From contig CH464491.1 in assembly GCA_000002445.1 (NCBI GenBank), positions 5,152,001-5,216,000 of the forward strand: DNA of 64,000 nucleotides. Direction: 5' to 3'. Origin of the DNA: Trypanosoma brucei. Taxonomy: Eukaryota. Within the stretch, counting starts at the first letter, position 1, and each line of letters opens with the position of its first letter. Below the pieces are notes generated by a model that searched no databases, was not told where the DNA came from, and saw only the letters and a list, made by a program, of their open reading frames with translations. A program made the position numbers and the translations under genes. Positions 5,107 through 57,056 of this stretch are shown one piece after another.

Positions 5107-6651
5107 TTAAAAAAGCAAGGCCACAAATGCAGCAGAAACAATGCTGAGGGCGAATTTCTTGTTTAGGAGAATAGAGGAATCCTGGCACTTTCCTTCAATC
5201 CAACCGCAAACAGCGTTTTTGCCCTCCTTCTTTTTTCCTGGGGCCTTGGCGCATGTGTCGGGGTCCGTATACTGGCCACAATTAGGGTCTTCTGCCCCTC
5301 CTGCTGCTGCTGCTGTGTTTTCTGTTCCTGCTTTAGGTTTGCACTCGTTTTCCTTTTCGTCATGTTCGCAGCCAAGGCTTTTGCATTCTGTTGCGGTTTT
5401 CTTTGCTGTGTCGCTGCAGTTGCTGTTTGTCGGCTGTTTTTCCTCGGTCTTGTCTGCTTGCTGCTTTTGTTCCGAGGCTGGGCTGTGTCTTTCATCGGTG
5501 ATGGCTGCCGATTTTAGTGCGTAGGCTGTTTTCGCCGCTGCCGCTATGGTCTGCTCCACGGCTGCTAGTTTCGACAGAGCTTGTTCGTGTTCATGTAGCA
5601 GCTTGGCTGCTGTCTGCAGTTGGCTTAGCCATGGGTGAGTTGCTAGAGTTTCCAGTTCCTGCTTTGTTCCTGCTTTGTACATCACGCAGATGCCTTGGTT
5701 CGATTTCCCTGAGCAACCTGTTCCGGTGTAAAAGCCGTAGTAAGTGTCTTTGCCTTTCTGTTGGAATGCGTTGATTAATGCTGTTGCTTTTGCCTGTACT
5801 TCGGCTGCCGTGGCTGGCGTTTTGGGCGATGGTTGTGGGCACTTGCTTAGAAGATCTTTTAGAACTTGCTCCGGTGTGCTGCTCGGGTTGAATGCCGTTG
5901 ACGACTGACTGCTTTCGCAGAGCTTGTTGTTGTCGGTGCCGTCGACTCCGCAAACGCACAGCATAAACTGTGCTATTGTGTTTGCTTTGGCGTCAGTGTT
6001 TGGGGCTCCGCACAGCAATTGTCTGGTCGTTCCGGTGCCTCCCTGGCCTTTGCAGTCGGTGTCTTTCGCACCGGCGGGGGTAAAATCGTCACGGCCGTAG
6101 GCGGCGATCTTCAGCGCTTTGAGTGCATCGTTTGCTTTGTCCTTTTCGGGACCGGTCGCTAGTTGTGTGACGTGTTGCAGCGCTTGAAAAGCGTGTTCCG
6201 CTATCGGGTTTAGCTGCCTTCTGTAGTTTGCTAGCTGTTCTTCCGTTACGTCGGCCAGTCCCGCGGTCTGTAAAATCTGTCGTCTTGTATCGCTGTCTTT
6301 GACCGCGGCTGCTGCTTGTTTCCAGTACTCTTCTCTGGGGTCCGGAGCTGCTGGCTGTGCGGGTGCTGATGCGATCTGTTGTTTGTGCGCCGCTCCCTCG
6401 GTTTTGCTTGCGATTGTGTCGCGCCAACTCTGCGGTGCTACGGAGGCGTTGAGCTTCGCAATGGCCAGATAAGAAACCTGCGCTTGTGCATCTGTGATTT
6501 TTGCCGGAGCTGGTCGCTCTGCTAGGTTGACGAGCTCGCACAGCTGTCGGAAAAGGTGGCCGTGCTCGCCGTCGTCCGGGGCGCTGCTGGCCAGATAAGC
6601 TAGCGTCGCGACAATCGCAGATACTCGGATAAGGTAGCTTGTTTTGATCAT
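5107..6651 (-). CDS. VSG: variant surface glycoprotein, apparently intact (514 aa)
   Basis: Uninterrupted ORF with signal peptide MIKTSYLIRVSAIVATLAYLASSA, a cysteine-containing N-terminal domain and the canonical C-terminus [33 protein letters not shown]. Confidence 0.9.
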   Translation of the reverse strand: MIKTSYLIRVSAIVATLAYLASSAPDDGEHGHLFRQLCELVNLAERPAPAKITDAQAQVSYLAIAKLNASVAPQSWRDTIASKTEGAAHKQQIASAPAQPAAPDPREEYWKQAAAAVKDSDTRRQILQTAGLADVTEEQLANYRRQLNPIAEHAFQALQHVTQLATGPEKDKANDALKALKIAAYGRDDFTPAGAKDTDCKGQGGTGTTRQLLCGAPNTDAKANTIAQFMLCVCGVDGTDNNKLCESSQSSTAFNPSSTPEQVLKDLLSKCPQPSPKTPATAAEVQAKATALINAFQQKGKDTYYGFYTGTGCSGKSNQGICVMYKAGTKQELETLATHPWLSQLQTAAKLLHEHEQALSKLAAVEQTIAAAAKTAYALKSAAITDERHSPASEQKQQADKTEEKQPTNSNCSDTAKKTATECKSLGCEHDEKENECKPKAGTENTAAAAGGAEDPNCGQYTDPDTCAKAPGKKKEGKNAVCGWIEGKCQDSSILLNKKFALSIVSAAFVALLF

Positions 6652-6802: not shown

Positions 6803-7899
6803 TCACGTTTTATTAGCTTTAAACAAATACCCTTCTTTAAACGCGTCCCCACAAATTCTTTCATATCGAAAATGCCAATTCTCTCCGGACACTGCATAAG
6901 TTTCTATTTTCCCCATATCCTTCGAATTAAATTCTCCTCCTTTCAACCTTTTATACCAAGTAAGATTTTTCACAATTAACTTCGCTTTTTCCTCCCATGC
7001 AATAGGCTGTCCGGGAAAATGAATGAATGGGGCTTCTCCAATCACACCACTACTGGGAATAGTAAAAAATATCTCTTTATAATCCAATTCAATCATTCCT
7101 CTCTTCAAAACAAATCTCTGTCCAACAGCTTCCTCCTGTGTAACACTCCATATTAGCAATGGCGTATAGATACTCTGCTCTGACCACCACTCCTCGCTCC
7201 CTTTAAGCAATTCTCCAAAAGCATATTCAAATTTCTTAAATGCCCAAACTCTTGCGATTATATTACCACCTCCAAGGTAAGGTTTTCCGCTAGGAGGTGA
7301 TTTTAGTAAATGGGGTAATTTTTATCATATTCTTTTTGGTAACCAACATTAAAAAACCAAAAACATCTCTGTACATGCTCCTTGTGATCTGAGTTCATGA
7401 GCAAGTTCAACTGAGGAGCATAACACTCCGGAGTTGCTATAAATAAAATAGGGGAAATATGCTTCTCTTTTACTGTATCCTCTTCACTAAACTTCTCTTC
7501 ATTTTCCGCAGTATTTTGCATAAACTATTACACAGCATTCTCAGACTTCTGTTAACTAACAATAACATCAGATCCATCTGCAGTTATTACAATATTCTCA
7601 TCACTTGCATTCTGGTTTTCTAAAAATTCCATAATCAACTGCGGCCTCTTAACATGCTTATACAAACCTCCCATCGCAATTGAAATAATTTCAACATGGC
7701 TTAGTTTAGCACTCAATATGAGGATACACCATCCTTGTGTTGCGTGAGTTTGAACGGCAACCACAAATACTCTATGTTTCTTATTATTATTCTTTGTCAT
7801 ATTTGTTATGTTATTTGTCTCATTACCGTCATGAGATATTGAGTATAAACACACGAAGTGCAGAAAAGCCAGATAAAGCCCACATAAACTATATTTCAT
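6803..7899 (-). pseudogene. ESAG3-like pseudogene, signal-peptide protein family, tentative
   Basis: ORFs 7552-7899 (MKYSLCGLYLAFLHFVCLYSIS, signal peptide), 7303-7521 and 6803-7210 (WWSEQSIYTPLLIWSVTQEE...FIHFPGQPIAWEE...ICGDAFKEGYLFKANKT) are co-linear fragments of one gene of about 365 aa. A paralogous copy lies at 30731-31832. Assignment to ESAG3 rests on size, signal peptide and array context, not on remembered sequence. Confidence 0.4.
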
Positions 7900-8337
7900 T
7901 TGCTGATAAAACTTTAAAATTTAAATGGATTATGAGGAAAATTTAAAAAAAACTTATGAAAGAAGATTTAAGCCCAAGAAGAATTTTAAATTTCAACAAG
8001 ATTTGAACCTCAACTGCAAAACATACCACTCTTAATCTAAATGTAAAATCCAACCATTTAGCGTTGACAGTGGCCTCTACCATTGTAATTAATATAGAGA
8101 TCCCATAAGCCTTGCTTACTGGACTATATCTAAATCTTATTATCACATCCATAGTACCGTTTTTTATCATTATGTTGACTGTTTTTTTGTGTTTGAACTG
8201 GGCATAGTTTATTTCCTCTCTCCCTCTTCTCTGCCTCTCTTTTAAAAATATTTTTGTTCTGCCAAACAGTGCCATACCTACACCGCCACCTTGCTATTCT
8301 ATAAAGCGTGTCTGGTTTGTGTTTTCATATAGTTTTT

Positions 8338-8420
8338 ACTCCTCTTATTATTATATTCGTATATACACACTCACAACACTCTTCTATCATTTTGTCATTA
8401 TCTTTGTTATTATAACCCCA
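8338..8420 (-). repeat. 70-bp repeat, single degenerate unit
   Basis: tattatattcgtatatacacactcacaacac core plus a short TAA run. Confidence 0.8.
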
Positions 8421-8689: not shown

Positions 8690-9770
8690 ATGAAGCCCAG
8701 AAAAGTAGCAGTCATACTCAGAGCCAATTTCTTATTTAAATTAAAGCTACCATTACGGTTCTTTTCTGTTTCCTTTTCATCTTCACCATATTTTTCCTTT
8801 CTCCATGCACAATTTTGTTTGTCTCCTTTTTTGTCATTTTCACAAGCTGTCTTATCAGTGCCTTTCTTTGCACAACTAAATGCTCCTGCTGTCTCTATTT
8901 TTCCACCCGTTCTTGCAGATGCTCTCTACGGTTTTAGCTATGCACTATTTTTTGGTGTCACATTCGCAGCCCGCGGCTGTGCATCCTTCTGCTGTTTTGT
9001 TGGTGGCAGCCTTGCATTTATTCTGTTTTTCTGCTGTTGGTTGCTTGTTGACTGCTGTTTCGACTGAACTTTGAGCTCGTTCTAACAAATTTCTCAGCAT
9101 CAGAGCTACTATCATTTGTTGCTCCAGATCGTTTGCTGCACTTACCAACGCCGTCGCTTTCTGCGTTATATAATGTATTTCACCTAGCTTCGCGACTACT
9201 GTCCGCGCCGCTTCCACCAAAGGTATGCCAGTCTGGCTTCCCAGAAACTTCTTGTGGTTGACGCAGATGCCTTTGCTCGCCGCTCCTATTACATCCCTAT
9301 TACTTTGAGTATCAACGCAGTCTGGTTCTCCGTTGTGCAGTCCGTGTGCCACCAGAATTGTGTTTGATACGCTTCCCGATTGTGTTTGCGCGTTAGGGGC
9401 CGTTTCCGAGATTATCGCTCCTTTCCCTCGGCTGGCGAAGATTATGCTGATCTGATTTTCCACTGTTTGTGCGGTGAGCGCGGGGTCCTTTTCATTGATG
9501 CTTTTGATGCATTCGCCGTGTATTTTTGTTTTCCAGTCGTTGGCTGCAGCTGTTTGTGTGCCTCCTGTTGTTAGGCCGCTTAATGCCGCTGAGAAACAAA
9601 AGTTTGCCGTTTGACCCTTGCTTCCTTCGCATAGGCATACAATATTCGTTGCAAGGCAGCCGCCGCCTTTGCCCGGTTTGCCGTCCGCTGCTGATCCTGC
9701 GCAGGTGAATGAATGCTATACTGCTGCTAGCCACAGAAAATCGCTCTCCGCCGGCTATTTTGCCTAGGGT
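8690..9770 (-). pseudogene. VSG: VSG fragment (C-terminal two thirds), 5' end truncated at the ingi junction
   Basis: Translation running down from 9770 gives ...GGGCLATNIVCLCEGSKGQT...ATALVSAANDLEQQ...CECDTKK. A C-terminal-domain-like stretch with a hydrophobic tail (SFNLNKKLALSMTATFLGF) lies in another frame at 8700-8945. The sequence stops abruptly at the ingi 5' end. Confidence 0.65.
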
Positions 9771-9996
9771 CCCCTGGCGATGCCGGCCACCTCAACGTGG
9801 TGCCAGGGTCCAGTACCCCGTATCATCGGGGGAAGCCAAGAGCCAGCAGAGTTCCTTTCATGAGGAACACTGCTGTGCTCCGGCTACGGCATCATACAGC
9901 ACAGGGATCAGCAGCGTCTTGCTGGGACACCGTTCTTCATTTGTCGGTCCCTGGGCACGTGGCTAGCGTGCCATCAGCATTGTCACCCGCACTAAG

Positions 9997-10035
9997 ATGC
10001 TGCTGTCCGGTGATGTGGAAGAGAATCCCGGCCCG
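9997..10035 (+). other. 2A-like self-processing peptide MLLSGDVEENPGP at the ingi ORF N-terminus
   Basis: Exact D-x-E-x-NPGP motif, in the same frame as the downstream endonuclease and RT ORFs. An identical motif lies at 50988-51026 in copy 2. Confidence 0.8.
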
Positions 10036-10590
10036 TCGTTGCGCGGGATGCAGTGGAACTGCGCCGGGCTATTTTAAGGAAAGAGATTAGCACTCCACAA
10101 AACCCTTGTTGATGAGCGGATCGCCTTTTGTCTGTTGAGCGAGACAAGGATGACGCCTGGAGAGGCGGCTTGCTTTAGCGTTTCTGGCTACCAACATCAC
10201 GGAATAGCTCGTAACTGCAAAGGAGGTGGTGTATCAATACTAGTGAGGGGGGACCTACCAGTCGAGACCGGTATGGCCGTTGTTGGTCGCATTGAACAAG
10301 TGCATGCAACAATTCACCTTGCACGTGGAACGGCGCTGACTGTCACGTCGGCATACATCCCACCAAAACACACCTTCACGGCAACTGACCTAGATACGCT
10401 TCTGACAACTGACGGTGCCCAGCTCATCGGTGCAGACGCTAACGCACACGCGTTGGCATGGGATCGCGCGAGCCCACCAAATACCAAGGGTGAAACCCTC
10501 ACACAGTGATGCATTGACAATTAGTTTCTGGTCTGCAACACTGGTGAGTGCACCAGGTACGCGCGCCACCACGGGGAGTCCACCCCTGAT

Positions 10591-13500
10591 GTGACACTGT
10601 CAAGGAATTGCACAGTGTACACGTGGACATCGCTGTATTCTCCCGATAGCGATCACCATCACATATTTTTCGACGTTATCGTTGGAGACGACACAGATGC
10701 ACTGAGTTGCCCGCGGCTTCGAAAGCCCATGTACGCATGGCTAAAAGCTGACTGGAGGAATATCCGTCTCAAGGTTGACGAGCTCTGCAGGAAAATTAAT
10801 AGAGAGAAGAACGTCAACACCCTGGAACAGAAATTGAGCTTCGCCATCCGCATTGCGACGAAGGTCTCCGTCCCCCGTGGCTGCAGAGCAACGCCACCAC
10901 ATTGGACACCTGAGCTCGCGAAACTCGATGAAGAGATCGCTGGATGCGGACCCTCCCACCGAAGGGAAAAGTTTATAGCCACGCGTAAGCAGATCCTGGA
11001 CCGTACCACAAAGAAGAGATGGAGCACGCTATGCTCCAGACTTGCGGTGTCAGACCGCTGCAGTTGGCACATTGTCAAGAAGGTATATCCGCCACGACCA
11101 CTAACCACACCGGCTGTACTTGTTGATAACGCGGCCATCACGGACTACCGTCAAGCTGAGAGGTTCATTAAACTGTACTCGTCCCGCGCAAGAAGGTACC
11201 CCGACTCACACACACCGGCACCAATAAAGACGATAGAGAGTGAGTTCAGTCCCATCACGATGGCTGAACTACAGAGATCGATCAAACTGCTACCGAGTGG
11301 ATCCGCAGCCGGACATGATTGCTTATACAACGAGGCACTACAACATCTCGGTAGAACAGCGTTGAATGTTGTGCTGAGGCTATTCAATGAGAGCCTACGA
11401 ACGGGAGTCGTGCCGCCTGCATGGAAGACTGGTGTTATCATCCCCATCCTGAAGGCCGGAAAAAAGGCGGAGGACCTCGATTCTTACAGGCCTGTGACGC
11501 TCACGAGCTGTCTCTGCAAAGTCATGGAGCGCATAATTGCCGCGAGACTTAGAGACACTGTTGAGTCCCAGCTGACGCCGCAGCAATCAGGCTTTCGCCC
11601 CGGTTGCTCAACGCTCGAACAACTCCTGCACGTCCGCGCTGCCCTCCGCCGTCCCACGCACCAATCTCGTACGGGTGCTGTATTTGTCGACTACGAGAAG
11701 GCATTCGATACAGTAGACCACGACAAAATTGCGAGGGAAATGCACAGAATGAAGGTATCACCCCACATTGTGAAGTGGTGCGTATCATTTCTGAGTAACC
11801 GAACTGGCAGAGTGAGATTCAAGGAGAAGCTTTCCAGAAGCAGAACATTTGAGCGAGGAGTGCCACAAGGAACTGTCCTTGGCCCAATCATGTTCATTAT
11901 TGTCATGAACTCGTTGAGCCAACGCCTTGCAGAAGTGCCGTTACTGCAGCACGGATTCTTTGCAGACGACCTGACGCTACTTGCGAGGCACACAGAGAGG
12001 GATGTCATCAACCACACGCTGCAATGCGGCCTAAACGTGGTGTTACAGTGGTCAAAAGAGTACTTCATGTCTGTCAACGTAGCGAAAACAAAGTGCACAC
12101 TCTTCGGGTGTATAGAGCGTCACCCCCTTACATTACAACTGGACGGCGAAAGAATAGGAGCTGACAGGACACCGAAGCTTCTAGGAGTAACATTCCAGTG
12201 TCTGCAGGGGATGGCAACACATGCGGCCGAGACGAGACGCAAGATGGATTTCAGACTACTGCAGATAGCAGCCATCTCAGCTTCTACATGGGGGCCAAGA
12301 CGACAAGTACTGAGAGCTTTTTATCTAGCACTCGTACAGGCACACACCATGTATGGCATTGAGGTATGGTACTGGGACGCTTCGGAACGAAGTCGCGACC
12401 TCCTTGTATCAGCACAACACAAAGCCAGTCACATCATAGCCGGCATACCGCATGGGACGCGCAAAGAGGACTCTCTGCTGGAAGCAAACCTCCTGCCACT
12501 CAAGACGACCACTCTTGTGCGCAGCATGAAATTCATGCTGATGTGTGAGTCACGAGGCGGATGTTTGCGGCGCAGTGCTGAAGAAGTATACCACAGCAAA
12601 CACCCAGTCAGAGCCCTACATTCCCGCATCATGCGGTCCTATCCCCAACTCCGCATTGAGCCACGCGAGCACCCACTAGAGACATCGACGCTCCGCCACA
12701 GCTGCCGACCGATATTTCACACGCAGATAAAGCCTGTGTGCGCTGATGACCCTGACGATGTCAAAAGGGAGGCTTCCGAAAAGTGGATTGAACGGCATTT
12801 TGCACGGAGGGGGAAGGAGCCACCGCGGCGAGAGCACTACGAATTGTGGACTGATGGATCCGTGTCCCTCGGTGAGAAGTCCGGAGCAACTGCCCTGCTC
12901 TACAGAAGCAACACGCTGATTTGCGCACCCAAAACCGGAGCAGGGGAACTCTCATGCAGTTACAGAGCGGAATGCGTAGCATTAGAGATAGGACTGCAAC
13001 GGCTGCTGAAATGGCTTCCGGCATACAGAAGCACAACGAGCAGGTTGTCCATCTTCTCTGACTCGCTGTCAATGTTAACAGCACTGCAGACAGGCCCCCT
13101 AGCCGTAACGGACCCAATTCTAAGACGACTATGGAGGCTTCTGTTTCAAGTTCAGAGAAGGAAGATACGTATCCGACTGCAATTTGTGTTTGGCCATTGT
13201 GGCGTGAAACGGAATGAGGTTTGTGACGAAATGGCCAAAAAGGCCGCAGATTTACCACAGTTGCGAGACACATGGATCCCCAACATCATTGCTTATGCGA
13301 AGCGAGTGCTTAGGTCGGAAGAAGTCTATGAGAACACTCATAGGTTTGGTATCACGGGCAACCACTTTCCAACAAAACCTAAGAAAGAAGAACTGACGAG
13401 GGAGGAAGAAACGGCACTGGCACGCTTTCGGGTTGGGTCCTCAAGACACTATGGCTGGATGTTGCGAAAGATCAACCCGAGTGTGCCTCCACAGTGCCGA

Positions 13501-14757
13501 TGGTGCAACCCGCAACATGCAGAGATAGGGCCAACAATACAAACAGCCCTACCTGTTGCGACACGCACTCTTCAGAGAACCTCCGAACCGACCAAATGTA
13601 CGGAATGTGATGCCACATACCAATGCCGCTCGAGTGCTGTAACGCACATGGTAAACAAACATGGCTTTGTGCGAGCTGATGCCCTCCGGAGAATCAAATA
13701 CGGCGATGCAACACCTGCAGTGGACATCCCCCCGGAGCCCCCTCCAGTGGTGGCGATCGTTCCTCTACCATCGAGCACACGAGTCCTGATAAGACCGCAG
13801 GTGCTTCATTGTACCCTCTGTGCCTCCAAATTCGCAGTGCCAGGCCGACTATTACACCACCTTAGAACAATACATGGCATAGGCAGCGGTAGTTGCCGCG
13901 TGAAAAGGGGTCGAGAGAACGAAGACTCATTGCAAGGAGATGGTAGAGCTCCAGCAGCGCTAGCCTCTCAGGATACACGGAAGCTGCCGTTTCAATGTGA
14001 CCTGTGCGAGCCGAGCTTCGGTACACGTTCTTCCCTGTCACTACACAAGAAATTCAAACATAAGGGCATGGTGACGGAGGACGGTACCGTGGTGTTGGTG
14101 CAATTCCCTCGTAAGCGTGCCCGTGAGGGAAACGTTGACGTCCCGGGGAAAGGCGAGGTGCAGTGTGGTGTGTGCCAAAAAGTGCTCAGTTGCAGGGACT
14201 CCCTCATCCGACACTGTAAGGCTTTCCACAAAGGTGAGGGAGTGGAGCTTAAATGCAGCAAAAGCACAAAATTGTGTGCCACTGATTCCCCGCATACAAA
14301 CGCATCCATCTTGGTGTGCCCGACATGCGGAAGGCAGTGTGCTAGCAAAACTGGCCTCACCCTACATCAAAAGAAGATGCACGGTATGAAGGTAGAGCGC
14401 GCTGTTACCAGCCAACGCGGCGAATGCGAAGAAACGTCGCTGCACTTGATGAGCTGTCCCGGTTTGAAGGAGTTACGTGTCAGGTTTGCGGTAGAATGTG
14501 AGTGTGTGCAGGATGTATGTTTCTCTAAAAGGCTGGCGCAGTTTCTCATTGCGGTTGAACGGAGCCGGCCGCAGGTGAAGTCCTCACCTAAGGTAACAGT
14601 CATACAACCCACTCTCCCTTCTGCAACTTCCCCCCTTATTGCCGAGTGTGGAGCCAGCAGGAAAAGCACCGGACGCAGGAATAGTCCAGACACCCTCAGA
14701 GACAGAGAGGGTATGCAGTCAACAAGCAACAGAAACAGAAAGAGGGAGAGAGAATAA
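10591..14757 (+). CDS. ingi polyprotein remnant (RT, RNase H-like region, five C2H2 zinc fingers), 1388-aa ORF
   Basis: RT motifs (FVDYEKAFDTVDHDKI, FFADDLTLLA), an RNase H-like region (TDGSVSLGEKSGATALL...) and fingers (CTECDATYQCRSSAVTHMVNKHG, FQCDLCEPSFGTRSSLSLHKKFKHKG, VQCGVCQKVLSCRDSLIRHCKAFHKG, CPTCGRQCASKTGLTLHQKKMHG). The upstream AP-endonuclease segment (10135-10509) is cut off by in-frame stops. Confidence 0.85.
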   Translation: MTLSRNCTVYTWTSLYSPDSDHHHIFFDVIVGDDTDALSCPRLRKPMYAWLKADWRNIRLKVDELCRKINREKNVNTLEQKLSFAIRIATKVSVPRGCRATPPHWTPELAKLDEEIAGCGPSHRREKFIATRKQILDRTTKKRWSTLCSRLAVSDRCSWHIVKKVYPPRPLTTPAVLVDNAAITDYRQAERFIKLYSSRARRYPDSHTPAPIKTIESEFSPITMAELQRSIKLLPSGSAAGHDCLYNEALQHLGRTALNVVLRLFNESLRTGVVPPAWKTGVIIPILKAGKKAEDLDSYRPVTLTSCLCKVMERIIAARLRDTVESQLTPQQSGFRPGCSTLEQLLHVRAALRRPTHQSRTGAVFVDYEKAFDTVDHDKIAREMHRMKVSPHIVKWCVSFLSNRTGRVRFKEKLSRSRTFERGVPQGTVLGPIMFIIVMNSLSQRLAEVPLLQHGFFADDLTLLARHTERDVINHTLQCGLNVVLQWSKEYFMSVNVAKTKCTLFGCIERHPLTLQLDGERIGADRTPKLLGVTFQCLQGMATHAAETRRKMDFRLLQIAAISASTWGPRRQVLRAFYLALVQAHTMYGIEVWYWDASERSRDLLVSAQHKASHIIAGIPHGTRKEDSLLEANLLPLKTTTLVRSMKFMLMCESRGGCLRRSAEEVYHSKHPVRALHSRIMRSYPQLRIEPREHPLETSTLRHSCRPIFHTQIKPVCADDPDDVKREASEKWIERHFARRGKEPPRREHYELWTDGSVSLGEKSGATALLYRSNTLICAPKTGAGELSCSYRAECVALEIGLQRLLKWLPAYRSTTSRLSIFSDSLSMLTALQTGPLAVTDPILRRLWRLLFQVQRRKIRIRLQFVFGHCGVKRNEVCDEMAKKAADLPQLRDTWIPNIIAYAKRVLRSEEVYENTHRFGITGNHFPTKPKKEELTREEETALARFRVGSSRHYGWMLRKINPSVPPQCRWCNPQHAEIGPTIQTALPVATRTLQRTSEPTKCTECDATYQCRSSAVTHMVNKHGFVRADALRRIKYGDATPAVDIPPEPPPVVAIVPLPSSTRVLIRPQVLHCTLCASKFAVPGRLLHHLRTIHGIGSGSCRVKRGRENEDSLQGDGRAPAALASQDTRKLPFQCDLCEPSFGTRSSLSLHKKFKHKGMVTEDGTVVLVQFPRKRAREGNVDVPGKGEVQCGVCQKVLSCRDSLIRHCKAFHKGEGVELKCSKSTKLCATDSPHTNASILVCPTCGRQCASKTGLTLHQKKMHGMKVERAVTSQRGECEETSLHLMSCPGLKELRVRFAVECECVQDVCFSKRLAQFLIAVERSRPQVKSSPKVTVIQPTLPSATSPLIAECGASRKSTGRRNSPDTLRDREGMQSTSNRNRKRERE

Positions 14758-15589
14758 TAAACGAATAACAAAAATCAAAATAAAAGGATTGCTAATTCAC
14801 ATCTTTTGGAGAGTCCGGGGTGGGGGGTTTCTCGCCCCATCTGCTGTATTCCGTTCAACTGCGGAGCTACAACAAAAAATTATAGAGAGTGTGTTAGGCT
14901 GAATAAAAAAGGGAGACTCTGCCACAGTCGCCAGACCGATAGCATCTCAGGGCTCTACGGTGATGGCTGATGGCCGCGCCAGTGGGGGGAAACTCCCACG
15001 AAGGCACGAAGAAAATTTGAAAAATATTTCTGTGTCTTCGTCTTTTCCTTTTTTATTTTGTGTTTTTTCCGTCGGTGATGTAGAGATCGTTTTACCGGTA
15101 GATTTTGTAGGTACATACGCTCGGTTGCCGTTGTGATCTGTTTCGTAATACTTACAGCATGTATGCTTATTGTTATTATGATCATTTTTCCATTTGAGCG
15201 TTTAAAATTGCATATAATCAATAAACATTCCTGTTTTTATGTTAATCGTTATCACTAAATTAAGATTGTTACGAGTTCACTGTTGTTTACGTGCTTTTTT
15301 GTTCTATCATTCGATTTCTCCTGCTTCTTTTATAATTATATTAATATGTAATGAAAACACGCTCCTCTAATTATTACGGTTACTATATTATTATAACGCT
15401 ACACAATATCCACAAGGAAAATAAGTCATGTTCGAAAATGTTTTCTAATTTACACTTTATATGAAAAACTATTGATATTTATCAAGTGTGAGTAATTTTA
15501 GAAAGTTCTTTCAAAAACGAAAACTTTCATAGTTTCCACAATTTTCATATAATTTAGCAAAAATCTTTTAAAAATAATTCTTTAAAGTG

Positions 15590-17071
15590 TTATACTATAA
15601 TAAAAAATGCAAGCAAAAAAGGGGCATTATTAATTAAAAGAAAATTGCTTCCTGTGTTGTTTGTTTTTCCATCTTTATCTTCTTGGTTTGCTTTTTCTAG
15701 TGCTTGTTTTCTTTCCTTGATCAATGTACACTTTTTGTCCTTCTCGCCATCTTTGTTGAAAACGCACTCCTTATCCTTTAGTTTTTCGCATGCTTCTTGG
15801 TCATCTCCTGCTGCATTGCAAACTTTCTCCTTGTCTTGCACACTTGGAACTTTGCACTTAGAATTTTCCGTTGCCTTTTGTAATTCCTTGCCCTTCGCAG
15901 CTAGCTCCTGAACTCTTTGTCTCTCATAGTGCGTTAATATTAGGTTTAGTTGCCTAAGCTCTTTTATCTTACCGAGTTCTGTGTTTCCGTCTTTTTGGTC
16001 TGTGAATAGGCTATTGGGTATTGAGTTGCTGTCAATTGTGGCCCACAATTTGGCTAGGTCATGTTTTTTCGTTGCGCCGTACGTATTGGTAATTGTGTTT
16101 TCCGCTGCAGTTTTGTGGCTGACGTCGCTGTAGTCGTCGGTGTTGTTGAGCAGGCTGTCGTGCACTGCGGCTTTCGTTCGCTTACTTCTTTTCAAGTTGC
16201 TAATTTCTGTTTTTTCTTGCGTGCTGAGCTGTAGCATTCTGCTCTGCAGGTGTTCAGCCAGTGCCTTTCTGGCGTTAAAGTAAAGCACCGGTGTGTTTGA
16301 GGTTGCCTGTTTGTCGAAGGTTTGTAGGTCTTTGGTTGAAAGGTCGGCGCCGTTTGGCGGCAGTTCAAAGAAACCCCCGGCGTAAGGTACGGCCGCGGCT
16401 GTCTGTCCGCCGTTGGTGATACCGCCGCCGCCGGTTTGCCCTTTCGTTAGGGCGCAGTTTTTGCTAGCGTCTGTGTGGCCGCCGGCGGCGCCGGTTATTC
16501 TAGCGGCTTTGAAAAGCGCTTCTGGCGTGTGGCCGTAGTCTTGGGGCGGTTCTGTCGCTCCTTCCGTAACAGCCAGCTTGCATTGCCCGAGGTTGGCCGC
16601 CCCTTGGGTTGCGTCGCCCGTCCCGGCCTCTATAAGACAGCCGTGCGTACCGCTGGACGAATGAGCTTGTGCTGCTATTGTTAGAAATTCAGTTATTCCG
16701 CCGTGAAGGAAATTTGAGTGCGCAGTTGACTTGATTGCCTTGTCTACGCCATCTTTAAGGTCCGCGATAGAGGTCCCTTGTAGTTCGTCTTGAGCTAGCA
16801 GAATTGGAAAGAGCTCCAGTGCTTGTTGCGCCGGCTGCCTGGCTACGTATATGCGCAACTTTAAGTCGGCCACCGCTTGGTTATGTAACTGGTCGAGCTT
16901 GCTACTGACGTCGGCTCGTACTTTCTGAGTCAGGCCTGCCAGCGTCGCTGAAATGTCGCAAAGGGGCTTCCACGCCGCTGCTGAGATGCCGTTGCCGCCT
17001 GTTGCTGCACCGCGCCTGGTCGCTATACCGAGCACTAGCGCAGTTGCTACCATCGCCTGGTGCGGCTTCAT
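15590..17071 (-). CDS. VSG: variant surface glycoprotein, apparently intact (493 aa)
   Basis: Uninterrupted ORF with signal peptide MKPHQAMVATALVLGIATRRGAATG, a cysteine-rich C-terminal domain and a hydrophobic GPI-signal tail TGSNFLLINNAPFLLAFFIIV. Confidence 0.85.
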   Translation of the reverse strand: MKPHQAMVATALVLGIATRRGAATGGNGISAAAWKPLCDISATLAGLTQKVRADVSSKLDQLHNQAVADLKLRIYVARQPAQQALELFPILLAQDELQGTSIADLKDGVDKAIKSTAHSNFLHGGITEFLTIAAQAHSSSGTHGCLIEAGTGDATQGAANLGQCKLAVTEGATEPPQDYGHTPEALFKAARITGAAGGHTDASKNCALTKGQTGGGGITNGGQTAAAVPYAGGFFELPPNGADLSTKDLQTFDKQATSNTPVLYFNARKALAEHLQSRMLQLSTQEKTEISNLKRSKRTKAAVHDSLLNNTDDYSDVSHKTAAENTITNTYGATKKHDLAKLWATIDSNSIPNSLFTDQKDGNTELGKIKELRQLNLILTHYERQRVQELAAKGKELQKATENSKCKVPSVQDKEKVCNAAGDDQEACEKLKDKECVFNKDGEKDKKCTLIKERKQALEKANQEDKDGKTNNTGSNFLLINNAPFLLAFFIIV

Positions 17072-31832: not shown

Positions 31833-32254
31833 TTCTTAATATGACTTTAAAATTTGAATGCATTATGAGGAAAAATGAAAAAAACTTAGGAAAGAAGTGA
31901 GCAGCACAACGTATATTTTTATTTTCGATAAGTTTAAAAATTCAATTTCAAAACACACCTTGTTGTATCTAAAGTAAAACATCAACATTTAGCGGTGTCA
32001 GTTGCTTATCCACATATACCAAAGATAGAAATTTCATAAGGCTTCTTCACTAGACTATGTCTAAATCTTATGATCACAATTATCATACCTTTTGGTATCA
32101 TCATAACCACACTTATTTATGTGTTTAAAACTGCGTATATTTTATTTCTCCGCTCCCTCTGTGTCTTTCTTTTAATAATATTCTTGACCTTCCAAACGGT
32201 CACATACTTACACCGCAACCTTGTTATTGTATAAAGCGTGTCTGGTTTTTATTA

Positions 32255-32323: not shown

Positions 32324-32378
<55 letters not shown>

Positions 32379-49779: not shown

Positions 49780-50763
49780 TACGACGTTTACTAGTTTCTT
49801 CTTTTTAAAGGATGTGCGTTCAAGCTGAGTCGTTGGTTTTTTTGTTACAGTTTGGTGCTATAGAAGATTGCCATTTGCTGTTCAGTGCCTTGCCAACCTT
49901 TTAGAGCAGCCACAGCTAGAGTTCTTTTGTTTAACGCTGAATCGGTAACTATTATAAAATGGAAGTGCTTATCTTTTGTGCTGGTTTAGTAAGATGATCT
50001 TGCCGCATTAAAGAAGATAAATGTGACCTTCTATGGGCAATCTCCATAAGTTAAAAACTAATTGAGCTTTTGGTGTCTTTTTTACACCTACAGCAGCCAA
50101 CGCATCCTTTGAACACTGGATTTATTAAATTACACTCACAAACGTCTTAAATATTGGTTTTAGGTATATTTTAACTCTTAATTCTAATATACGTCACTCT
50201 ATATCTATAACTATTGCATCTTTCCTTCACATTCCCAATTTCCTACCTGTTTGCTTTTAAAAAAGTTTAGATAGGTCTGTAAATGTAAAAAAATTAGAAT
50301 TTATGATTTTCACTCTCTTCTATCAACTTATTCCTCCTATGTTTTTCCTGAACTTCGAAGAACAAGATAACACTGTTGCTTCTCGCACACGTGGCCCCTC
50401 TTTCCCTCTTTTTTTTTGGATGGTGATACTGAGTTCCTCAGACGTTCGAAATTGGAAATTTATGTGCTGACGCGTACTGCTAATCTTGGTCTTGCGGCTA
50501 GCCTTATATAAGATACGCTTGTTTTAAACTGTTTTATCGTCGGCCCGTATATCAACACGGATTTTTTGGTATCGCCATTAATTTTCTATACTTTATAGAA
50601 ATAGGCTGCGGTTCCATCTGCGTGAATTATTCCTCCCTCATTGCTTCTGCCAGTCGGGGGTTTGGTCGGCTGCCTACTCCTAAGTATTCACCGTACCCGC
50701 CGTGCTATATGCATTGCCTGCGCCGCTTCGATGTGTTTCGCCGTGGTCTAGTTTTGGCTTTAT

Positions 50764-53700
50764 CCCTCGCGATGCCGGCCACCTCAACGTGGTGCCAGGG
50801 TCCAGTACCCCGTATCATCGGGGAAAGCCAAGAGCCAGCAGAGTTCCTTTCATGAGGAACACTGCTGTGCTCCGGCTACGGCATCATACAGCACAGGGAT
50901 CAGCAGCGTCTTGCTGGGACACCGTTCTTCATTTGTCTGTCCCTGGGGACGTGCCAGCGTGCCATCAACAGTATCATCCGCACTAAGATGCTGCTGTCCG
51001 GTGATGTGGAAGAGAATCCCGGACCGTCGTTGCGCGGGATGCAGTGGAACTGCGCCGGGGTATCTCAAGGAAAGAGATTAGCACTCCACAAAACCCTTGT
51101 TGATGAGCGGATCGCCTTTTGTCTGTTGAGCGAGACAAGGATGACGCCTGGAGAGGCGGCTTGCTTTAGCGTTGCTGGCTACCAACATCACGGAATAGCT
51201 CGTAACTTCAAAGGAGGTGGTGTATCAATACTAGTGAGGGGGGACCTACCAGTCGAGACCGGTATGGCCGTTGTTGGTCGCATTGAACAAGTGCATGCAA
51301 CAATTCACCTTGCACGTGGAACGGCGCTGACTGTCACGTCGGCATACATCCCACCAAAACACACCTTCACGGCAACTGACCTAGATACGCTTCTGACAAC
51401 TGACGGTGCCCAGCTCATCGGTGCAGACGCTAACGCACACGCGTTGGCATGGGATCGCGCGAGCCCACCAAATACAAGGGGTGAAACCCTCACACAGTGG
51501 TGCATTGACAATTAGTTTCTGGTCTGCAACACTGGTGAGTGCACCAGGTACGCGCGCCACCACGGGGAGTCCACCCCTGATGTGACACTGTCAAGGAATT
51601 GCACAGTGCACACGTGGACATCGCTGTATTCTCCCGATAGCGATCACCATCACATATTTTTCGACGTTATCGTTGGAGACGACACAGATGCACTGAGTTG
51701 CCCGCGGCTTCGAAAGCCCATGTACGCATGGCTAAAAGCTGACTGGAGGAATATCCGTCTCAAGGTTGACGAGCTCTGCAGGAAAATTAATAGAGAGAAG
51801 AACGTCAACACCCTGGAACAGAAATTGAGCTTCGCCATCCGCATTGCGACGAAGGTCTCCGTCCCCCGTGGCTGCAGAGCAACGGCATCACATTGGACAC
51901 CTGAGCTCGCGAAACTCGATGAAGAGATCGCTGGATGCGGACCCTCCCACCGAAGGGAAAAGTTGGTAGCCACGCGTAAGCAGATCCTGGACCGTACCAC
52001 AAAGAAGAGATGGAGCACGCTATGCTCCAGACTTGCGGTGTCAGACCGCTGCAGTTGGCACATTGTCAAGAAGGTATATCCGCCACGACCACTAACCACA
52101 CCGGCTGTACTTGTTGATAACGCGGCCATCACGGACTACTGTCAAGCTGAGAGGTTCATTAAACTGTACTCGTCCCGCGCAAGAAGGCACCCCGACTCAC
52201 ACCCACCGGCACCAATAAAGACGATAGCGAGTGAGTTCAGTCCCATCACGATGGCTGAACTACGGAAATCGATCAAACAACTTCCGAGTGGATCCACAGC
52301 CGGACCTAATTGCTTATACAACGAGGCACTACAACATCTCGGTAGAACAGCGTTGAATGTTGTTCTGAGGCTATTCAATGAGAGCCTACGAACGGGAGTC
52401 GTGCCGCCTGCATGGAAGACTGGTGTTATCATCCCCATCCTGAAGGCCGGAAAAAAGGCGGAGGACCTCGATTCTTACAGGCCAGTGACGCTCACGAGCT
52501 GTCTCTACAAAGTCATGGAGCGCATAATTGCCGCGAGACTTAGAGACACTGTTGAGTCCCAGCTGACGCCGCAGCAATCAGGCTTTCGCCCCGGATGCTC
52601 AACGCTCGAACAACTCCTGCACGTCCGCGCTGCCCTCCGCCGTCCCACGCACCAATCTCGTACGGGTGCTGTATTTGTCGACTACGAGAAGGCATTCGAT
52701 ACAGTAGACCACGACAAAATTGCGAGGGAAATGCACAGAATGAAGGTATCACCCCACATTGTGAAGTGGTGCGTATCATTTCTGAGTAACCGAACTGGCA
52801 GAGTGAGATTCAAGGAGAAGCTTTCCAGAAGCAGAACATTTGAGCGAGGAGTGCCACAAGGAACTGTCCTTGGCCCAATCATGTTCATTATTGTCATGAA
52901 CTCGTTGAGCCAACGCCTTGCAGAAGTGCCGTTACTGCAGCACGGATTCTTTGCAGACGACCTGACGCTACTTGCGAGGCACACAGAGAGGGATGTCATC
53001 AACCACACACTACAATGCGGTCTAAACGTGGTGTTACAGTGGTCAAAAGAGTACTTCATGTCTGTCAACGTAGCGAAAACAAAGTGCACACTCTTCGGGT
53101 GTATAGAGCGTCACCCCCTTACATTACAACTGGACGGCGAAAGAATAGGAGCTGACAGGACACCGAAGCTTCTAGGAGTAACATTCCAGTGTCTGCAAGG
53201 GATGGCAACACATGCGGCCAAAACGAGACGCAAGATGGATTTCAGACTACTGCAGATAGCAGCCATCTCAGCTTCTACATGGGGGCCAAGACGACAAGTA
53301 CTGAGAGCTTTTTATCTAGCACTCGTACAGGCACACACCATGTATGGCATTGAGGTATGGTACTGGGACGCTTCGGAACGAAGTCGCGACCTCCTTGCAT
53401 CAGCACAACACAAAGCCAGTCGCATCATAGCCGGCATACCACATGGGACGCGCAAAGAGGACTCTCTGCTGGAAGCAAACCTCCTGCCACTCAAGACGAC
53501 CACTCTTGTGCGCAGCATGAAATTCATGCTGATGTGTGAGTCACGAGGCGGATGTTTGCGGCGCAGTGCTGAATAAGTATACCACAGCAAACACCCAGTC
53601 AGAGTCTTACATTCCCGCATCATGCGGTCCTATCCCCAACTCCGCATTGAGCCACGCGAGCAACCACTAGAGACATCGACGCTCCGCCACAGCTGCCGAC

Positions 53701-56028
53701 CGCTATTTCACACGCAGATAAAGCCTGTGTGCGCTGATGACCCTGACGATGTCAAAAGGGAGGCTTCCGAAAAGTGGATTGAACGGCATTTTGCACGGAG
53801 GGGGAAGGAGCCACCGCGGCGAGAGCACTACGAATTGTGGACTGATGGATGCGTGTCCCTCGGTGAGAAGTCCGGAGCAACTGCCCTGCTCTATAGAAAC
53901 AACACGCTGATTTGCGCACCCAAAACTGGAGCAGGGGAACTCTCATGCAGTTACAGAGCGGAATGCTTAGCATTAGAGATAGGACTGCAACGGCTGCTGA
54001 AATGGCTTCCGGCATACAGAAGCACAACGAGCAGGTTGTCCATCTTCTCTGACTCGCTGTCAATGTTAACAGCACTGCAGACAGGCCCCCTAGCCGTAAC
54101 GGACCCAATTCTAAGACGACTATGGAGGCTTCTGTTTCAAGTTCAGAGAAGGAAGATACGTATCCGACTGCAATTTGTGTTTGGCCATTGTGGCGTGAAA
54201 CGGAATGAGGTTTGTGACGAAATGGCCAAAAAGGCCGCAGATTTACCACAGTTGCGAGACACATGGATCCCCAACATCATTGCTTATGCGAAGCGAGTGC
54301 TTAGGTCGGAAGAAGTCTATGAGAACACTCATAGGTTTGGTATCACGGGCAACCACTTTCCAACAAAACCTAAGAAAGAAGAACTGACGAGGGAGGAAGA
54401 AACGGCACTGGCACGCTTTCGGGTTGGGTCCTCAAGACACTATGGCTGGATGTTGCGAAAGATCAACCCGAGTGTGCCTCCACAGTGCCGATGGTGCAAC
54501 CCGCAACATGCAGAGATAGGGCCAACAATACAAACAGCCCTACCTATTGCGACACGCACTCTTCAGAGAACCTCCGAACCGACCAAATGTACGGAATGTG
54601 ATGCCACATACCAATGCCGCTCGAGTGCTGTAACGCACATGGTAAACATGGCTTTGTGCGAGCTGATGCCCTCAGGAGGATCAAATACGGCGATGCAACA
54701 CCTGCAGTGGACATCCCCCCGGAGTCCCCTCCAGTGGTGGCGATCGTTCCTCTACCATTCGAGCACACGAGTCCAGATGAGACCGCAGGTGCTTCATTGT
54801 ACCCTCTGTACCTCCAAATTCGCAGTGCCAGGCCGACTATTACACCACCTTAGAACAATACATGGCATAGGCAGCGGTAGTTTGCCGCGTGAAAAGGGGG
54901 CGAGAGAACGAGGACTCAGTGCAAGGAGATGGTAGAGCTCCAGCAGCGCCAGCCTCTCAGGATACACGGAAGCTGCCGTTTCAATGTGACCTGTGCGAGC
55001 CGAGCTTCGGTACACGTTCTTCCCTGTCACTACACAAAAAATTCAAACATAAGAGCATAGTGACGGAGGACGGTACCGTGGTGGTGGTGCAACTCCCTCG
55101 TAAGCGTGCCCGTGAGGGAAACGTTGACGTCCCGGGGAAGGGCGAGGTGCAGTGTGGTGTGTGCCAAAAAGTGCTCAGTTGCAGGGACTCCCTCATCCGA
55201 CACTGTAAGGCTTTCCACAAAGGTGAGGGAGTCGAGCTTAAATGCAGCAAAAGCACAAAATTGTGTGCCACTGATTCCCCGCATACAAACACATACATGT
55301 ACATCCATCTTGGTGTGCCCGACATGCGGAAGGCAGTGTGCTAGCAAAACTGGCCTCACCCTACATCAAAAGAAGATGCACGGTATGAAGGTAGAGCGCG
55401 CTGTTACCAGCCAACGCGGCGAATGCGAAGAAACGTCGCTGCACTTGATGAGCTGTCCCGGTTTGAAGGAGTTACGTGTCAGGTTTGCGGTAGAAGGTGA
55501 GTGTGTGCAGGATGTATGTTTCTCTAAAAGGCTGGCGCAGTTTCTCATTGCGGTTGAACGGAGCCGGCCACAGGTGAAGTCCTCACCTAAGGTAACAGTC
55601 ATACAACCCACTCTCCCTTCTGCAACTTCCCCCCTTATTGCCGAGTGTGGAGCTAGCAGGAAAAGCACCGGACGCAGGAATAGTCCAGACACCCTTAGAG
55701 ACAGAGGAGGTATGCAGTCAACAAGCAACAGAAACAGAAAGAGGGGGAGAGAATAATAAACGAATAACAAAAATCAAAACAAAAGGATTGGTAATTGACA
55801 TCTTTGAGAGAGTCCGGGGTGGGGGGTTTCTCGCCCCATCTGCTGTATTCCGTTCAACTTCGGAGCTACAATAAAAAATTATAGAGAGTGTGTTAGGGTG
55901 AATAAAAAAGGGAGACTCTGCCACAGTCGCCAGACCGATAGCATATCAGTGCTCTACGGTGATGGCTGATGGCCGCGCCAGTGGGGGGAAACTCCCACGA
56001 AGGCACGAAGAAAATTCCAAAAAAAAAA
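50764..56028 (+). mobile_element. ingi: ingi non-LTR retrotransposon, copy 2, degenerate, 3' poly(A) of about 10 nt
   Basis: Co-linear with copy 1 at about 97-98 % identity from ccctcgcgatgccggccacctcaacgtgg to ...cacgaaggcacgaagaaaattccaaaaaaaaaa. The ORF is broken by a nonsense change at about 53577 (GAA to TAA) and by later indels. Confidence 0.9.
50988..55756 (+). pseudogene. ingi polyprotein pseudogene (AP endonuclease, RT, RNase H-like region and zinc fingers split into several ORFs)
   Basis: ORFs 50988-51515 (2A plus endonuclease), 51582-53576 (RT), 53622-54935, and 54889-55344 / 55106-55756 (zinc fingers) are co-linear with the copy 1 ORF but sit in different frames or are separated by stops. 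Confidence 0.85.
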
Positions 56029-56030
56029 TG

Positions 56031-57056
56031 CCTCTGTTTTTCTGCTTCGACGAGCATTTTTTGGGCAGCAAGAAACTGTCCCACCCAGGGGAGTTTTGTA
56101 ATATCCTTGTTCCGTACGACGCCATTGTAGTCTATGCAAGCGGATGCTTCGTCTTGTCCGTCGAAGTCGTTGTTGGTTTCTCCGCCTCCTATCACGTTCT
56201 CTGTGTTTGCGCCGGTGGATGGTGCTGTGCCAAACAAACTTGCGAATTGGGCAAGCGCCGCGTCGATGGTTGATGGTGTCACATGCCGCTGGGTTGCTGA
56301 GGGTGGACACTTTGTTACTATCGTTTGTAGTGCTCTCTTAGCGCTCTGTGCTGTGTCTCCACCGCTGTTTTTGTAGCTTTGTTCGTTGCCGCCTGCCACA
56401 CACAGGTTGGTCGCACCCGCTGAGGAACACAGGCAAGCCAAATCCGATGCTAGGCTGGCTCCCTGCTCGGCCGGACTGTCCTTTTTGCACCTGTTCGCGT
56501 GGTTGCCATATATGCTGTCGTCCGTAGTCTCCTTGTTTGTATCACCCGTTAGCGCTTGCTTCAGGTGGCTTCTTACACCGCCAGCCAAAGCTGTTATTGC
56601 TTGTTGTGCATCGTTGAGCCGTTTTCTGGTTTCGGCTGCTGCTGTTCGAATTTTGTCCATCGCACATTGTACACGCTGCCGGGTTTCTTCGTCTCCGATA
56701 CGTAAATATTTTGTTTTTGCTTCTGGTGTATGTGCCTCCAGCAAACTTTTCTTTTTTTGCTCCCACGCTTGCTTGTTGAACGTCGAAAAAATTTTTGCTG
56801 TGAAATTAACTGTTGGCAGCGTTACAATGTACAAATCCTCTATGTCGTCTGGCGGTTCAGGTGTGTCGCTCCGCGTTAAGTCTGTTGTGTTTGGTTCCGA
56901 TGTGCACAGCTTGTAAATTTCGCAAAATACAGAGAATTCTTTGCCGTTCTTTGTGGTCGCTGCGGCGCCAAGTTGAGCTGCCAATAGTAGAAGGGCCAAT
57001 GCTTTTGATATGGCGAATATAGCGCATCCCGACATTGCATACCCGTATCTGATCAT
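56031..57056 (-). pseudogene. VSG: VSG N-terminal-domain fragment, 3' end truncated by ingi copy 2
   Basis: ORF 55893-57056 begins with signal peptide MIRYGYAMSGCAIFAISKALALLLLAAQLGAAA and has a VSG N-domain (DLACLCSSAGATNLCVAGG). After ...KMLVEAEKQRH the reading runs straight into the ingi poly(A) tail (FFFGIFFVPSWEF), and no C-terminal domain follows. Confidence 0.8.

What the first reader, a model, noticed from the sequence alone, without database searches (positions are those of the whole stretch)
8690..15022. ingi copy 1 abuts a 5'-truncated VSG on its left and unrelated sequence on its right
The VSG-like reading frame (...GGGCLATNIVCLCEGSKGQT...) starts exactly at the ingi 5' boundary (9770/9771). 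It lacks about 190 N-terminal codons and a signal peptide. The right flank (15023-15589) is non-coding 3'-UTR-like sequence of the next VSG. Together with copy 2, both ingi elements in this window sit at VSG truncation points. That is the pattern expected if ingi elements act as homology for ectopic recombination that creates and deletes VSG segments.
Basis: partly seen in the sequence, partly recalled or inferred. Interest (0 to 1): 0.5.

Follow-up and report, generated by a model that had tools for sequence, protein, structure and literature searches.

The report
Duplication-less ingi retrotransposon bridging broken VSG array
A full-length but dead ingi retrotransposon in a Trypanosoma brucei TREU927 surface-antigen (VSG) gene array joins the back half of a VSG pseudogene to unrelated spacer DNA and lacks the usual insertion footprint, so a rearrangement happened here, but this is an ordinary, already described feature of these arrays.

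Summary
Four intact VSG proteins match T. b. brucei TREU927 exactly, on a 5.26-Mb record, so the window is a silent VSG array.

- **The element.** ingi copy 1 is full length (9772-15024, + strand, A5 tail) and has three premature stops.
- **Left flank.** It abuts a B-type VSG pseudogene fragment (8690-9771, - strand) that begins near residue 210 of a full-length relative.
- **Right flank.** It consists of about 294 nt of spacer, a degenerate 70-bp repeat, and the 3' UTR of an intact A-type VSG.
- **Copy 2** (50764-56028) truncates another VSG at codon 343. Close relatives of that VSG in two other strains continue past this point.
- **Footprint.** Neither ingi has the 12-bp target-site duplication, and the flanks do not cross-match between the copies. 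The flanks are therefore not one pre-insertion sequence.

- The flanks of the two copies do not rebuild a VSG.
- Two of four junctions inside VSG sequence is what chance gives, because at least 42% of the array is VSG-like.
- Insertion-coupled deletion and misassembly remain open.

A probable Lister 427 homologue begins exactly at the left junction, which suggests the junction is old. This is a known kind of feature and of low interest.

The parts
8332..8419 (-). 70-bp repeat unit downstream of the VSG fragment. It marks the normal 3' end of that VSG unit.
   Evidence: nhmmer E=3e-17 with a profile built from the window's own 70-bp repeats. BLAST hits to more than 10 other inter-VSG sites.
8690..9771 (-). 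5'-truncated B-type VSG pseudogene. It holds the second half of the N-terminal domain plus a frameshifted C-terminal domain and GPI-signal-like tail. It lacks about 170-210 N-terminal codons.
   Evidence: Translation. BLASTP to VSG 1053 residues 215-483, E=1e-31. Trypan_glycop_C hit in a second frame. 88% identical to P0001, which begins at the junction codon.
9772..15024 (+). ingi copy 1, full length (5253 bp). It has a complete 5' end, a 2A-like DVEENPGP motif, RT, RNase H and zinc-finger domains, and an A5 tail. It is non-functional, with premature stops at 10075, 10507 and 10522. It has no target-site duplication.
15025..15318 (.). 294 nt of AT-rich spacer lying beyond the 70-bp repeat. 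This is the start of the upstream region of whichever VSG unit once followed. It is unique in the window.
15319..15398 (-). Degenerate 70-bp repeat.
   Evidence: nhmmer E=0.005, 12.6 bits. It aligns with the other 70-bp repeats.
15399..15589 (-). 3' UTR of the intact VSG, with a degenerate 16-mer region.
   Evidence: Alignment with other VSG downstream regions. No 16-mer within 3 mismatches.
15590..17071 (-). Intact A-type VSG (493 aa), identical to TREU927 protein EAN80681.1.
   Evidence: Pfam PF00913 E=2e-83. Exact match.
49780..50763 (.). Left flank of ingi copy 2. It is non-coding DNA upstream of the VSG_B pseudogene at 48473-49779 and contains no 70-bp repeat.
50764..56028 (+). ingi copy 2, full length with an A10 tail. 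It carries stops and a frameshift. It has no target-site duplication.
56029..57056 (-). 3'-truncated B-type VSG holding only the N-terminal domain (codons 1-343). Its ORF runs on into antisense ingi sequence.
   Evidence: Pfam VSG_B profile positions 4-340 of 352. Relatives at 88-90% identity continue 100 aa or more past the junction.

Best explanation
**What is there.** ingi copy 1 is a dead, full-length ingi non-LTR retrotransposon. It lies antisense in a silent VSG array of T. brucei TREU927.

**Proposed origin.** Its two flanks come from two different insertion sites. One ingi had inserted inside a B-type VSG near codon 210. Another had inserted in inter-VSG spacer, about 295 nt past a 70-bp repeat. 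Homologous recombination within the 5.2-kb ingi homology (a crossover or a gene conversion tract ending in the element) then joined the left flank of the first to the right flank of the second. This removed both duplication partners. It also removed either about 1-2 kb of one VSG unit or a whole inter-array segment. Copy 2 went through the same kind of event independently.

**Shown.**
- The element is full length.
- It has no duplication.
- Its flanks are not contiguous.
- The VSG truncations are real.

**Inferred.**
- The cause was ingi-ingi recombination.
- The left junction is old, because it appears to be shared with strain Lister 427.
For: - **No duplication.** Neither copy has a 12-bp duplication, and none cross-matches between the copies. 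The published hallmark of Tbingi insertion is a 12-bp duplication (PMC3820030). The two copies are 97.9% identical, so decay cannot explain the loss of the duplication.
- **Normal ends.** Both elements have complete 5' ends and A-tails, as expected for ordinary insertions that were later recombined.
- **Weak target-site hints.** The two left flanks share CTA(G)TTTTG(C/G)C near the junction (p about 0.03). The two right flanks match at 7/12 positions in register (p about 0.025). Both hint that all four junctions are genuine endonuclease target sites from separate insertions.
- **Patchy divergence.** Differences between the copies are unevenly spread (chi-square p=3e-4), which is compatible with a mosaic history.
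- **Both elements are affected.** Both ingis in 64 kb lack the duplication. This fits frequent recombination better than two rare insertion-coupled deletions.
- **Literature.** PMC2854126 states that ingi and RIME recombine and cause rearrangements. ingi elements lie within VSG arrays (PMC3553974).
- **Age of the left junction.** P0001 is 88% identical to the left-flank fragment and starts at the exact junction codon. Its UniParc id falls in the block of Lister 427 VSGnome entries.
Against: - No reciprocal product or partner duplication could be looked for, because no T. brucei genome is searchable with these tools.
- The two copies' flanks do not complement each other.
- With only two copies, no internal breakpoint can be located.
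- The published ingi target consensus could not be retrieved. The target-site hints are therefore uncalibrated and each is only marginally significant.
- P0001's start at the junction could be a coincidental stop codon in an uninterrupted Lister 427 pseudogene. I estimate this at about 5% per codon.
Confidence: 0.55

Rival explanations
1. Insertion-coupled target deletion. A single ingi retrotransposition event nicked the spacer at 15024/15025. It then resolved its 5' end about 1-2 kb away, inside the neighbouring VSG. The intervening upstream region and the first ~200 codons were deleted, and no duplication was made. This is the behaviour documented for human L1 insertion-mediated deletions (established knowledge, not tested here).
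For: - No duplication is present.
- The element is full length with an A-tail.
- The flank order fits a deletion of less than one VSG unit. The distance from a 70-bp repeat to the next ATG is 741-1681 nt elsewhere in the window. That gives a loss of about 1.1-2.0 kb.
Against: - Any two random phases in a periodic array look like a deletion of less than one unit, so the flank order carries no information.
- Both ingis would need this minority outcome.
- The two left flanks resemble each other near the junction, which is not expected if 5' joins are arbitrary.
Confidence: 0.2
2. Assembly misjoin. The reference assembly joined two different ingi loci through the 5.2-kb repeat, so the two flanks are not adjacent in the real chromosome.
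For: - The signature is exactly what a misjoin would give: no duplication and unrelated flanks, in both copies.
- ingi is a high-copy repeat, with 470 target sites reported in PMC12975129.
Against: - The two copies differ at 96 sites plus 5 indels, so they are distinguishable.
- They are not swapped with each other, because there is no cross-duplication.
- The probable Lister 427 entry P0001 independently ends at the same left junction.
- TREU927 was a clone-based finished assembly (my knowledge, not tested).
Confidence: 0.08
3. Local deletion between two neighbouring ingis. Two ingi copies inserted 1-2 kb apart in the same orientation within one VSG unit, then recombined. This left one element and deleted the DNA between them.
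For: - It leaves the same signature as the best explanation.
- A T. equiperdum paralogue of the copy-2 VSG unit has retroposon sequences about 0.4-1 kb downstream of the equivalent point, so clustered insertions do occur.
Against: With 2 ingis per 64 kb, two same-orientation insertions within 2 kb is unlikely. For it to happen at both loci is more unlikely still (my rough estimate is a few percent each).
Confidence: 0.1
4. The VSG was already truncated and the ingi later inserted normally at that junction, after which its duplication decayed.
For: The window holds many disrupted VSG copies that are not next to any ingi, for example 649-2333 and 48473-49779.
Against: The in-register match is 5/12 for copy 1, whereas about 11-12 of 12 would be expected given the 2% divergence between the ingi copies.
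Confidence: 0.03

Closest known systems
Tbingi / TbRIME non-LTR retrotransposons of T. brucei (ingi clade)
   Same: - About 5.25 kb long.
- Conserved 5' signature starting CCCTGGCG.
- 2A-like DVEENPGP motif.
- RT, RNase H and C2H2 domains.
- A-rich 3' end.
- Location inside subtelomeric VSG arrays.
   Different: - It lacks the 12-bp target-site duplication that defines a pristine insertion.
- Its ORF carries three premature stops.
ingi/RIME-mediated rearrangements reported between T. b. brucei and T. b. gambiense (PMC2854126)
   Same: A dispersed ingi copy sits at the breakpoint of a structural discontinuity.
   Different: Those cases were shown by comparing two genomes. Here only one genome is visible, so the rearrangement is inferred from the missing duplication and the mismatched flanks.
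Human L1/Alu recombination-mediated deletions and L1 insertion-mediated deletions (established knowledge, not tested here)
   Same: An element without a duplication, flanked by non-contiguous DNA, with kilobase-scale loss of target sequence.
   Different: - Different element clade and host.
- T. brucei relies on homologous and microhomology repair.
- No ancestral empty site is available to tell the two human-type mechanisms apart.
VSG pseudogene fragments of the TREU927 silent archive
   Same: - A partial VSG with a frameshifted C-terminal domain.
- A normal 3' UTR.
- A downstream 70-bp repeat.
   Different: Its 5' end is defined to the base by a retrotransposon boundary, not by decay or a conversion boundary.

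Membership tests
Tbingi retrotransposon | Conserved 5' terminal signature (first ~77-79 nt) at the element start | tested here: met
   Both copies begin CCCT(G/C)GCGATGCCGGCCACCTCAACGTGG, and their homology starts exactly there. Identity with the published signature rests on my recall. Rfam has no model that hits it.
Tbingi retrotransposon | About 5.2 kb long, with one long ORF encoding reverse transcriptase, RNase H and a zinc finger | tested here: met
   RVT_1 E=5e-45, RNase_H E=2e-8, and zf-C2H2_4 weak and below its cut-off. Single frame of 1586 codons with 3 premature stops. The endonuclease domain was not scanned separately.
Tbingi retrotransposon | A-rich 3' tail | tested here: met
   A5 in copy 1 and A10 in copy 2.
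Tbingi retrotransposon | 12-bp target-site duplication (PMC3820030) | tested here: not met
   Best match is 8/12 out of position, within the chance range. Copy 1 matches 5/12 in register. The element belongs to the family, but it is not a pristine insertion.
Tbingi retrotransposon | Conserved ~11-bp pattern upstream of the 5' duplication | not testable with these tools
   The consensus is in papers that are not held. Only a weak resemblance between the two left flanks was seen.
VSG (B-type) gene | N-terminal domain homologous to B-type VSGs | tested here: met
   BLASTP E=1e-31 to VSG 1053 residues 215-483. Pfam VSG_B itself gives no hit at E<=0.01, so only the second half of the domain is present.
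VSG (B-type) gene | C-terminal domain and GPI-signal tail | tested here: met
   PF10659 E=3e-12, but in a different frame, so the domain is frameshifted.
VSG (B-type) gene | Signal peptide and complete ORF | tested here: not met
   Homology starts near residue 210. There are stops at codons 2, 5 and 18 from the junction. It is a pseudogene fragment.
Recombinant (chimeric) ingi produced by ingi-ingi exchange | No duplication and non-contiguous flanks | tested here: met
Recombinant (chimeric) ingi produced by ingi-ingi exchange | Partner element(s) elsewhere carrying the matching half-duplications and the missing flank sequence | not testable with these tools
   Not present in the window. No T. 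brucei genome could be searched.
Recombinant (chimeric) ingi produced by ingi-ingi exchange | Internal breakpoint visible as a switch of subfamily-diagnostic sites | tested here: inconclusive
   Mismatches between the two copies are non-uniform (p=3e-4). Two sequences cannot locate a breakpoint.
Insertion-mediated target deletion | An empty-site allele showing both flanks on one contiguous sequence, separated by the deleted segment | not testable with these tools
   No orthologous locus from another strain was obtainable.

The most novel reading that the evidence does not exclude
The module 'ingi 5' end joined to a VSG lacking its first ~210 codons' is an old unit, conserved between TREU927 and Lister 427. 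Duplication-less ingis are then the rule in VSG arrays because the elements serve systematically as portable homology. That homology shuffles array segments and generates partial VSGs usable as mosaic donors. This would make ingi a structural contributor to evolution of the antigen archive, not a passenger.
Probability: 0.2. Interest if true: 0.45.

Novelty: already known. Interest (0 to 1): 0.15.

Why it matters
If ingi elements were shown genome-wide to mark the breakpoints of VSG-array rearrangements, they would help explain how the silent VSG archive is reshuffled. They would also help explain why VSG repertoires diverge so quickly between strains. This single locus only illustrates a documented phenomenon in the fully annotated TREU927 reference. 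It shows no enrichment, direction or activity, so on its own it changes nothing.

Tried and rejected
1. **Own and cross-copy duplication search.** Nothing above chance.
2. **Rebuilding one VSG from copy-1 left plus copy-2 right.** The fragments overlap and are unrelated. The missing N- or C-terminal halves were sought in the window by tblastn and are absent.
3. **Joining copy-1 right to copy-2 left as one spacer.** The combined length is plausible, but there is no duplication match and no shared homology.
4. **Genomic context from other strains.**
   - The look-up of encoding contigs failed for P0001, P0017 and six window ORFs.
   - Two metagenome scans were empty.
   - Only a T. equiperdum contig for a 67%-identical paralogue was obtained. 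It is too distant to serve as an empty site.
5. **Rfam scan of the ingi 5' end for an HDV-like ribozyme, to fix the +1 base.** No hit.
6. **Published ingi target consensus.** The Bringaud 2009 paper and one further cited PMC record are not held, and the Bringaud 2004 consensus was not found in any held paper. Only the L1Tc and ingi6 consensus sequences were found.
7. **Decayed duplication.** Rejected because the ingi copies are only 2% diverged.
8. **A special association of ingi with VSG truncation.** Rejected on base rates.
Full report
**Source and setting**

Four intact VSG ORFs of the window are exact matches to T. b. brucei TREU927 proteins EAN80680-EAN80683, on a 5.26-Mb record. That size fits chromosome 11. 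The ORFs are 5107-6651, 15590-17071, 28835-30265 and 32639-34159.

The window is a silent VSG array:
- GC-rich VSG genes and pseudogenes lie on the minus strand every ~3 kb.
- They are separated by AT-rich spacers, most of which carry a 70-bp repeat unit.
- Many have a 3' UTR 16-mer.
- Two ingi elements lie on the plus strand, antisense to the VSGs and 40,992 bp apart.

**The element**

- Copy 1 spans 9772-15024 and copy 2 spans 50764-56023 plus an A-run to 56028.
- They are 97.9% identical over 5265 aligned columns, with 96 mismatches and 5 indels.
- Both start with the conserved CCCT(G/C)GCGATGCCGGCC 5' end. They end in A5 and A10 respectively.
- Copy 1 encodes RT, RNase H and a zinc finger in one frame of 1586 codons.
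- That frame opens with a 2A-like MLLSGDVEENPGP and is broken by stops at 10075, 10507 and 10522.
- Copy 2 has stops and a frameshift. Neither copy is autonomous.
- No other ingi or RIME fragment is in the window.

**Left flank of copy 1**

- It aligns from six codons inside the junction to residues 215-483 of the 493-aa VSG 1053, at 33% identity and E=1e-31.
- The fragment therefore starts near residue 210 of that relative. Measured against the copy-2 VSG it starts near residue 170.
- There are in-frame stops at codons 2, 5 and 18.
- The C-terminal domain and GPI-like tail are in another frame (PF10659 E=3e-12).
- Downstream come a normal 3' UTR and a 70-bp repeat at 8332-8419.

**Right flank of copy 1**

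Region 15025-15589 is AT-rich, holds only small ORFs of 88 aa or less, and is unique in the window. Read on the VSG strand, it consists of:
- the 3' UTR of the intact A-type VSG at 15590-17071;
- a degenerate 70-bp repeat at 15319-15398 (E=0.005);
- 294 nt of the next unit's upstream spacer.

**Copy 2**

- Its right flank is a B-type VSG N-domain that stops at codon 343, directly against the A-tail.
- The ORF then reads on into antisense ingi.
- The closest relatives are EATRO1125 VSG 1125.4768 (90% identity) and Lister 427 VSG 1271 (88% identity).
- Both continue for 100 residues or more past that point, so the truncation is real and not shared with them.
- Its left flank (49780-50763) is non-coding DNA upstream of a frameshifted VSG_B pseudogene.
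- Only one side of each ingi is therefore inside a VSG.

Tbingi insertions make a 12-bp duplication (PMC3820030).
- For both copies, and for both cross-combinations, the best 12-mer match near the junctions is 8/12 and out of position.
- About 39% of 2000 random position pairs in the window reach at least 8/12.
- Copy 1 matches at 5/12 positions in register.
- With only 2% divergence between the ingi copies, decay cannot explain the loss.
- The flanks also belong to different parts of a VSG unit. They are therefore not one pre-insertion sequence, and a rearrangement occurred.

**What is missing**

Elsewhere in the window the distance from a 70-bp repeat to the next ATG is 741-1681 nt.
- If both flanks of copy 1 came from one unit, about 1.1-2.0 kb is gone.
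- For copy 2 the corresponding figure is about 0.7-1.7 kb.
- This does not discriminate between the models, because any two phases of a periodic array look like a loss of less than one unit.

**Evidence bearing on mechanism**

For ingi-ingi homologous recombination:
- Both elements are complete and tailed like ordinary insertions, yet both lack duplications.
- The two left flanks share CTA(G)TTTTG(C/G)C near the junction (p about 0.03).
- The two right flanks agree at 7/12 positions in register (p about 0.025).
- Both hints suggest that all four junctions are real endonuclease target sites from separate insertions.
- Inter-copy differences are patchy (p=3e-4).
- The literature states that ingi and RIME recombine and cause rearrangements (PMC2854126).
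- The literature also places ingi within VSG arrays (PMC3553974).

Against, or missing:
- The two copies are not each other's partners.
- No missing half is in the window.
- No other T. brucei genomic sequence could be reached.
- The published ingi target consensus was unavailable.
- Insertion-coupled deletion, a local deletion between two nearby ingis, and a misjoin through the repeat all remain possible.

**Age of the left junction**

- The only close database relative of the fragment is P0001 (275 aa, 88% identity).
- It starts with DPRQ. That is the reverse complement of TTGCCTAGGGTC, the last 12 bases before the ingi.
- Its first 58 residues are read in the non-VSG frame.
- Its UniParc id UPI0002C181EC lies in the same id block as two Lister 427 VSGnome entries. 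These are UPI0002C184ED (VSG 1271) and UPI0002C18FAA (VSG 1053).
- If an ingi were read through, the ORF would extend 17 codons further. I worked this out by hand from the sequence.
- The entry therefore probably begins at a contig break at the repeat boundary.
- I infer, with about 0.8 confidence, that Lister 427 has the same junction. That would make it older than the strain split.

**Is the association with VSG truncation meaningful?**

- At least 42% of non-ingi bases are VSG-homologous.
- Two of four junctions inside VSG is then the chance expectation (binomial P of at least 2 is 0.56).
- The window also holds many disrupted VSG copies with no ingi nearby.
- A T. equiperdum paralogue of the copy-2 VSG unit carries retroposon sequences at other positions. 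This shows that such juxtapositions are commonplace.

**Verdict**

The phenomenon is already described for T. brucei, in a fully annotated reference genome. Novelty is rated 'already known' and interest is about 0.15.

Noticed in passing
window 55893-57056 (-): A 387-aa ATG-initiated ORF. It fuses 343 codons of a VSG_B N-domain to 44 codons read from the antisense 3' end of ingi copy 2 (FFFGIFFVPSWEFPPTG...). This is a chimeric ORF created by the junction.
   Followed up: partly
window 9997-10077 and 50988-51070 (+): Both ingi copies open with MLLSGDVEENPGP, a 2A-like DxExNPGP self-cleaving motif. PMC5814959 reports this motif for L1Tc and related elements. In copy 1 a stop follows after 26 codons.
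   Followed up: no
window 7064-8413 vs 30992-32351: A paralogous block of about 1.35 kb at 75-82% identity. Its homology ends at a 70-bp repeat (8332-8419 and 32271-32356). It contains a conserved ORF (6803-7524 and 30731-31462) with no Pfam hit. The VSGs upstream of the two repeats are unrelated. This looks like a duplication or conversion bounded by the 70-bp repeat.
   Followed up: partly
window 21411-21572 vs 24506-24667: A 162-nt direct repeat at 99% identity, 3095 bp apart, inside neighbouring VSG-like units. It is far more similar than the surrounding sequence, which suggests a recent short conversion tract.
   Followed up: no
window ~47700-47960: A long trinucleotide (TAA/ATT)n tract of about 240 nt directly next to the 70-bp repeat at 47671-47754. 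It reads as poly-Ile or poly-Asn ORFs.
   Followed up: no
L001 (T. equiperdum CZPT02000274.1) 5249-6338: This is a 78%-identical paralogue of the copy-2 VSG unit, and here the VSG continues past the point where the window's ingi joins. A retroposon 5'-signature-like sequence follows in the VSG orientation at about 5627-5660. An antisense ingi/RIME 3' end lies at the contig end (6283-6338).
   Followed up: partly
window 38238-39584 (-): A 448-aa ORF in VSG position, with a perfect 3' UTR 16-mer at 38067-38082. It has no Pfam VSG hit at E<=0.01. By eye it looks like an A-type VSG with a frameshifted C-terminus.
   Followed up: no
P0001 (UniParc UPI0002C181EC): The first 58 residues of this database 'VSG' entry are an out-of-frame translation. 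A 1-nt frame difference relative to TREU927 lies near ...KRQNFFFSAALS. The deposited protein is therefore partly artefactual.
   Followed up: partly
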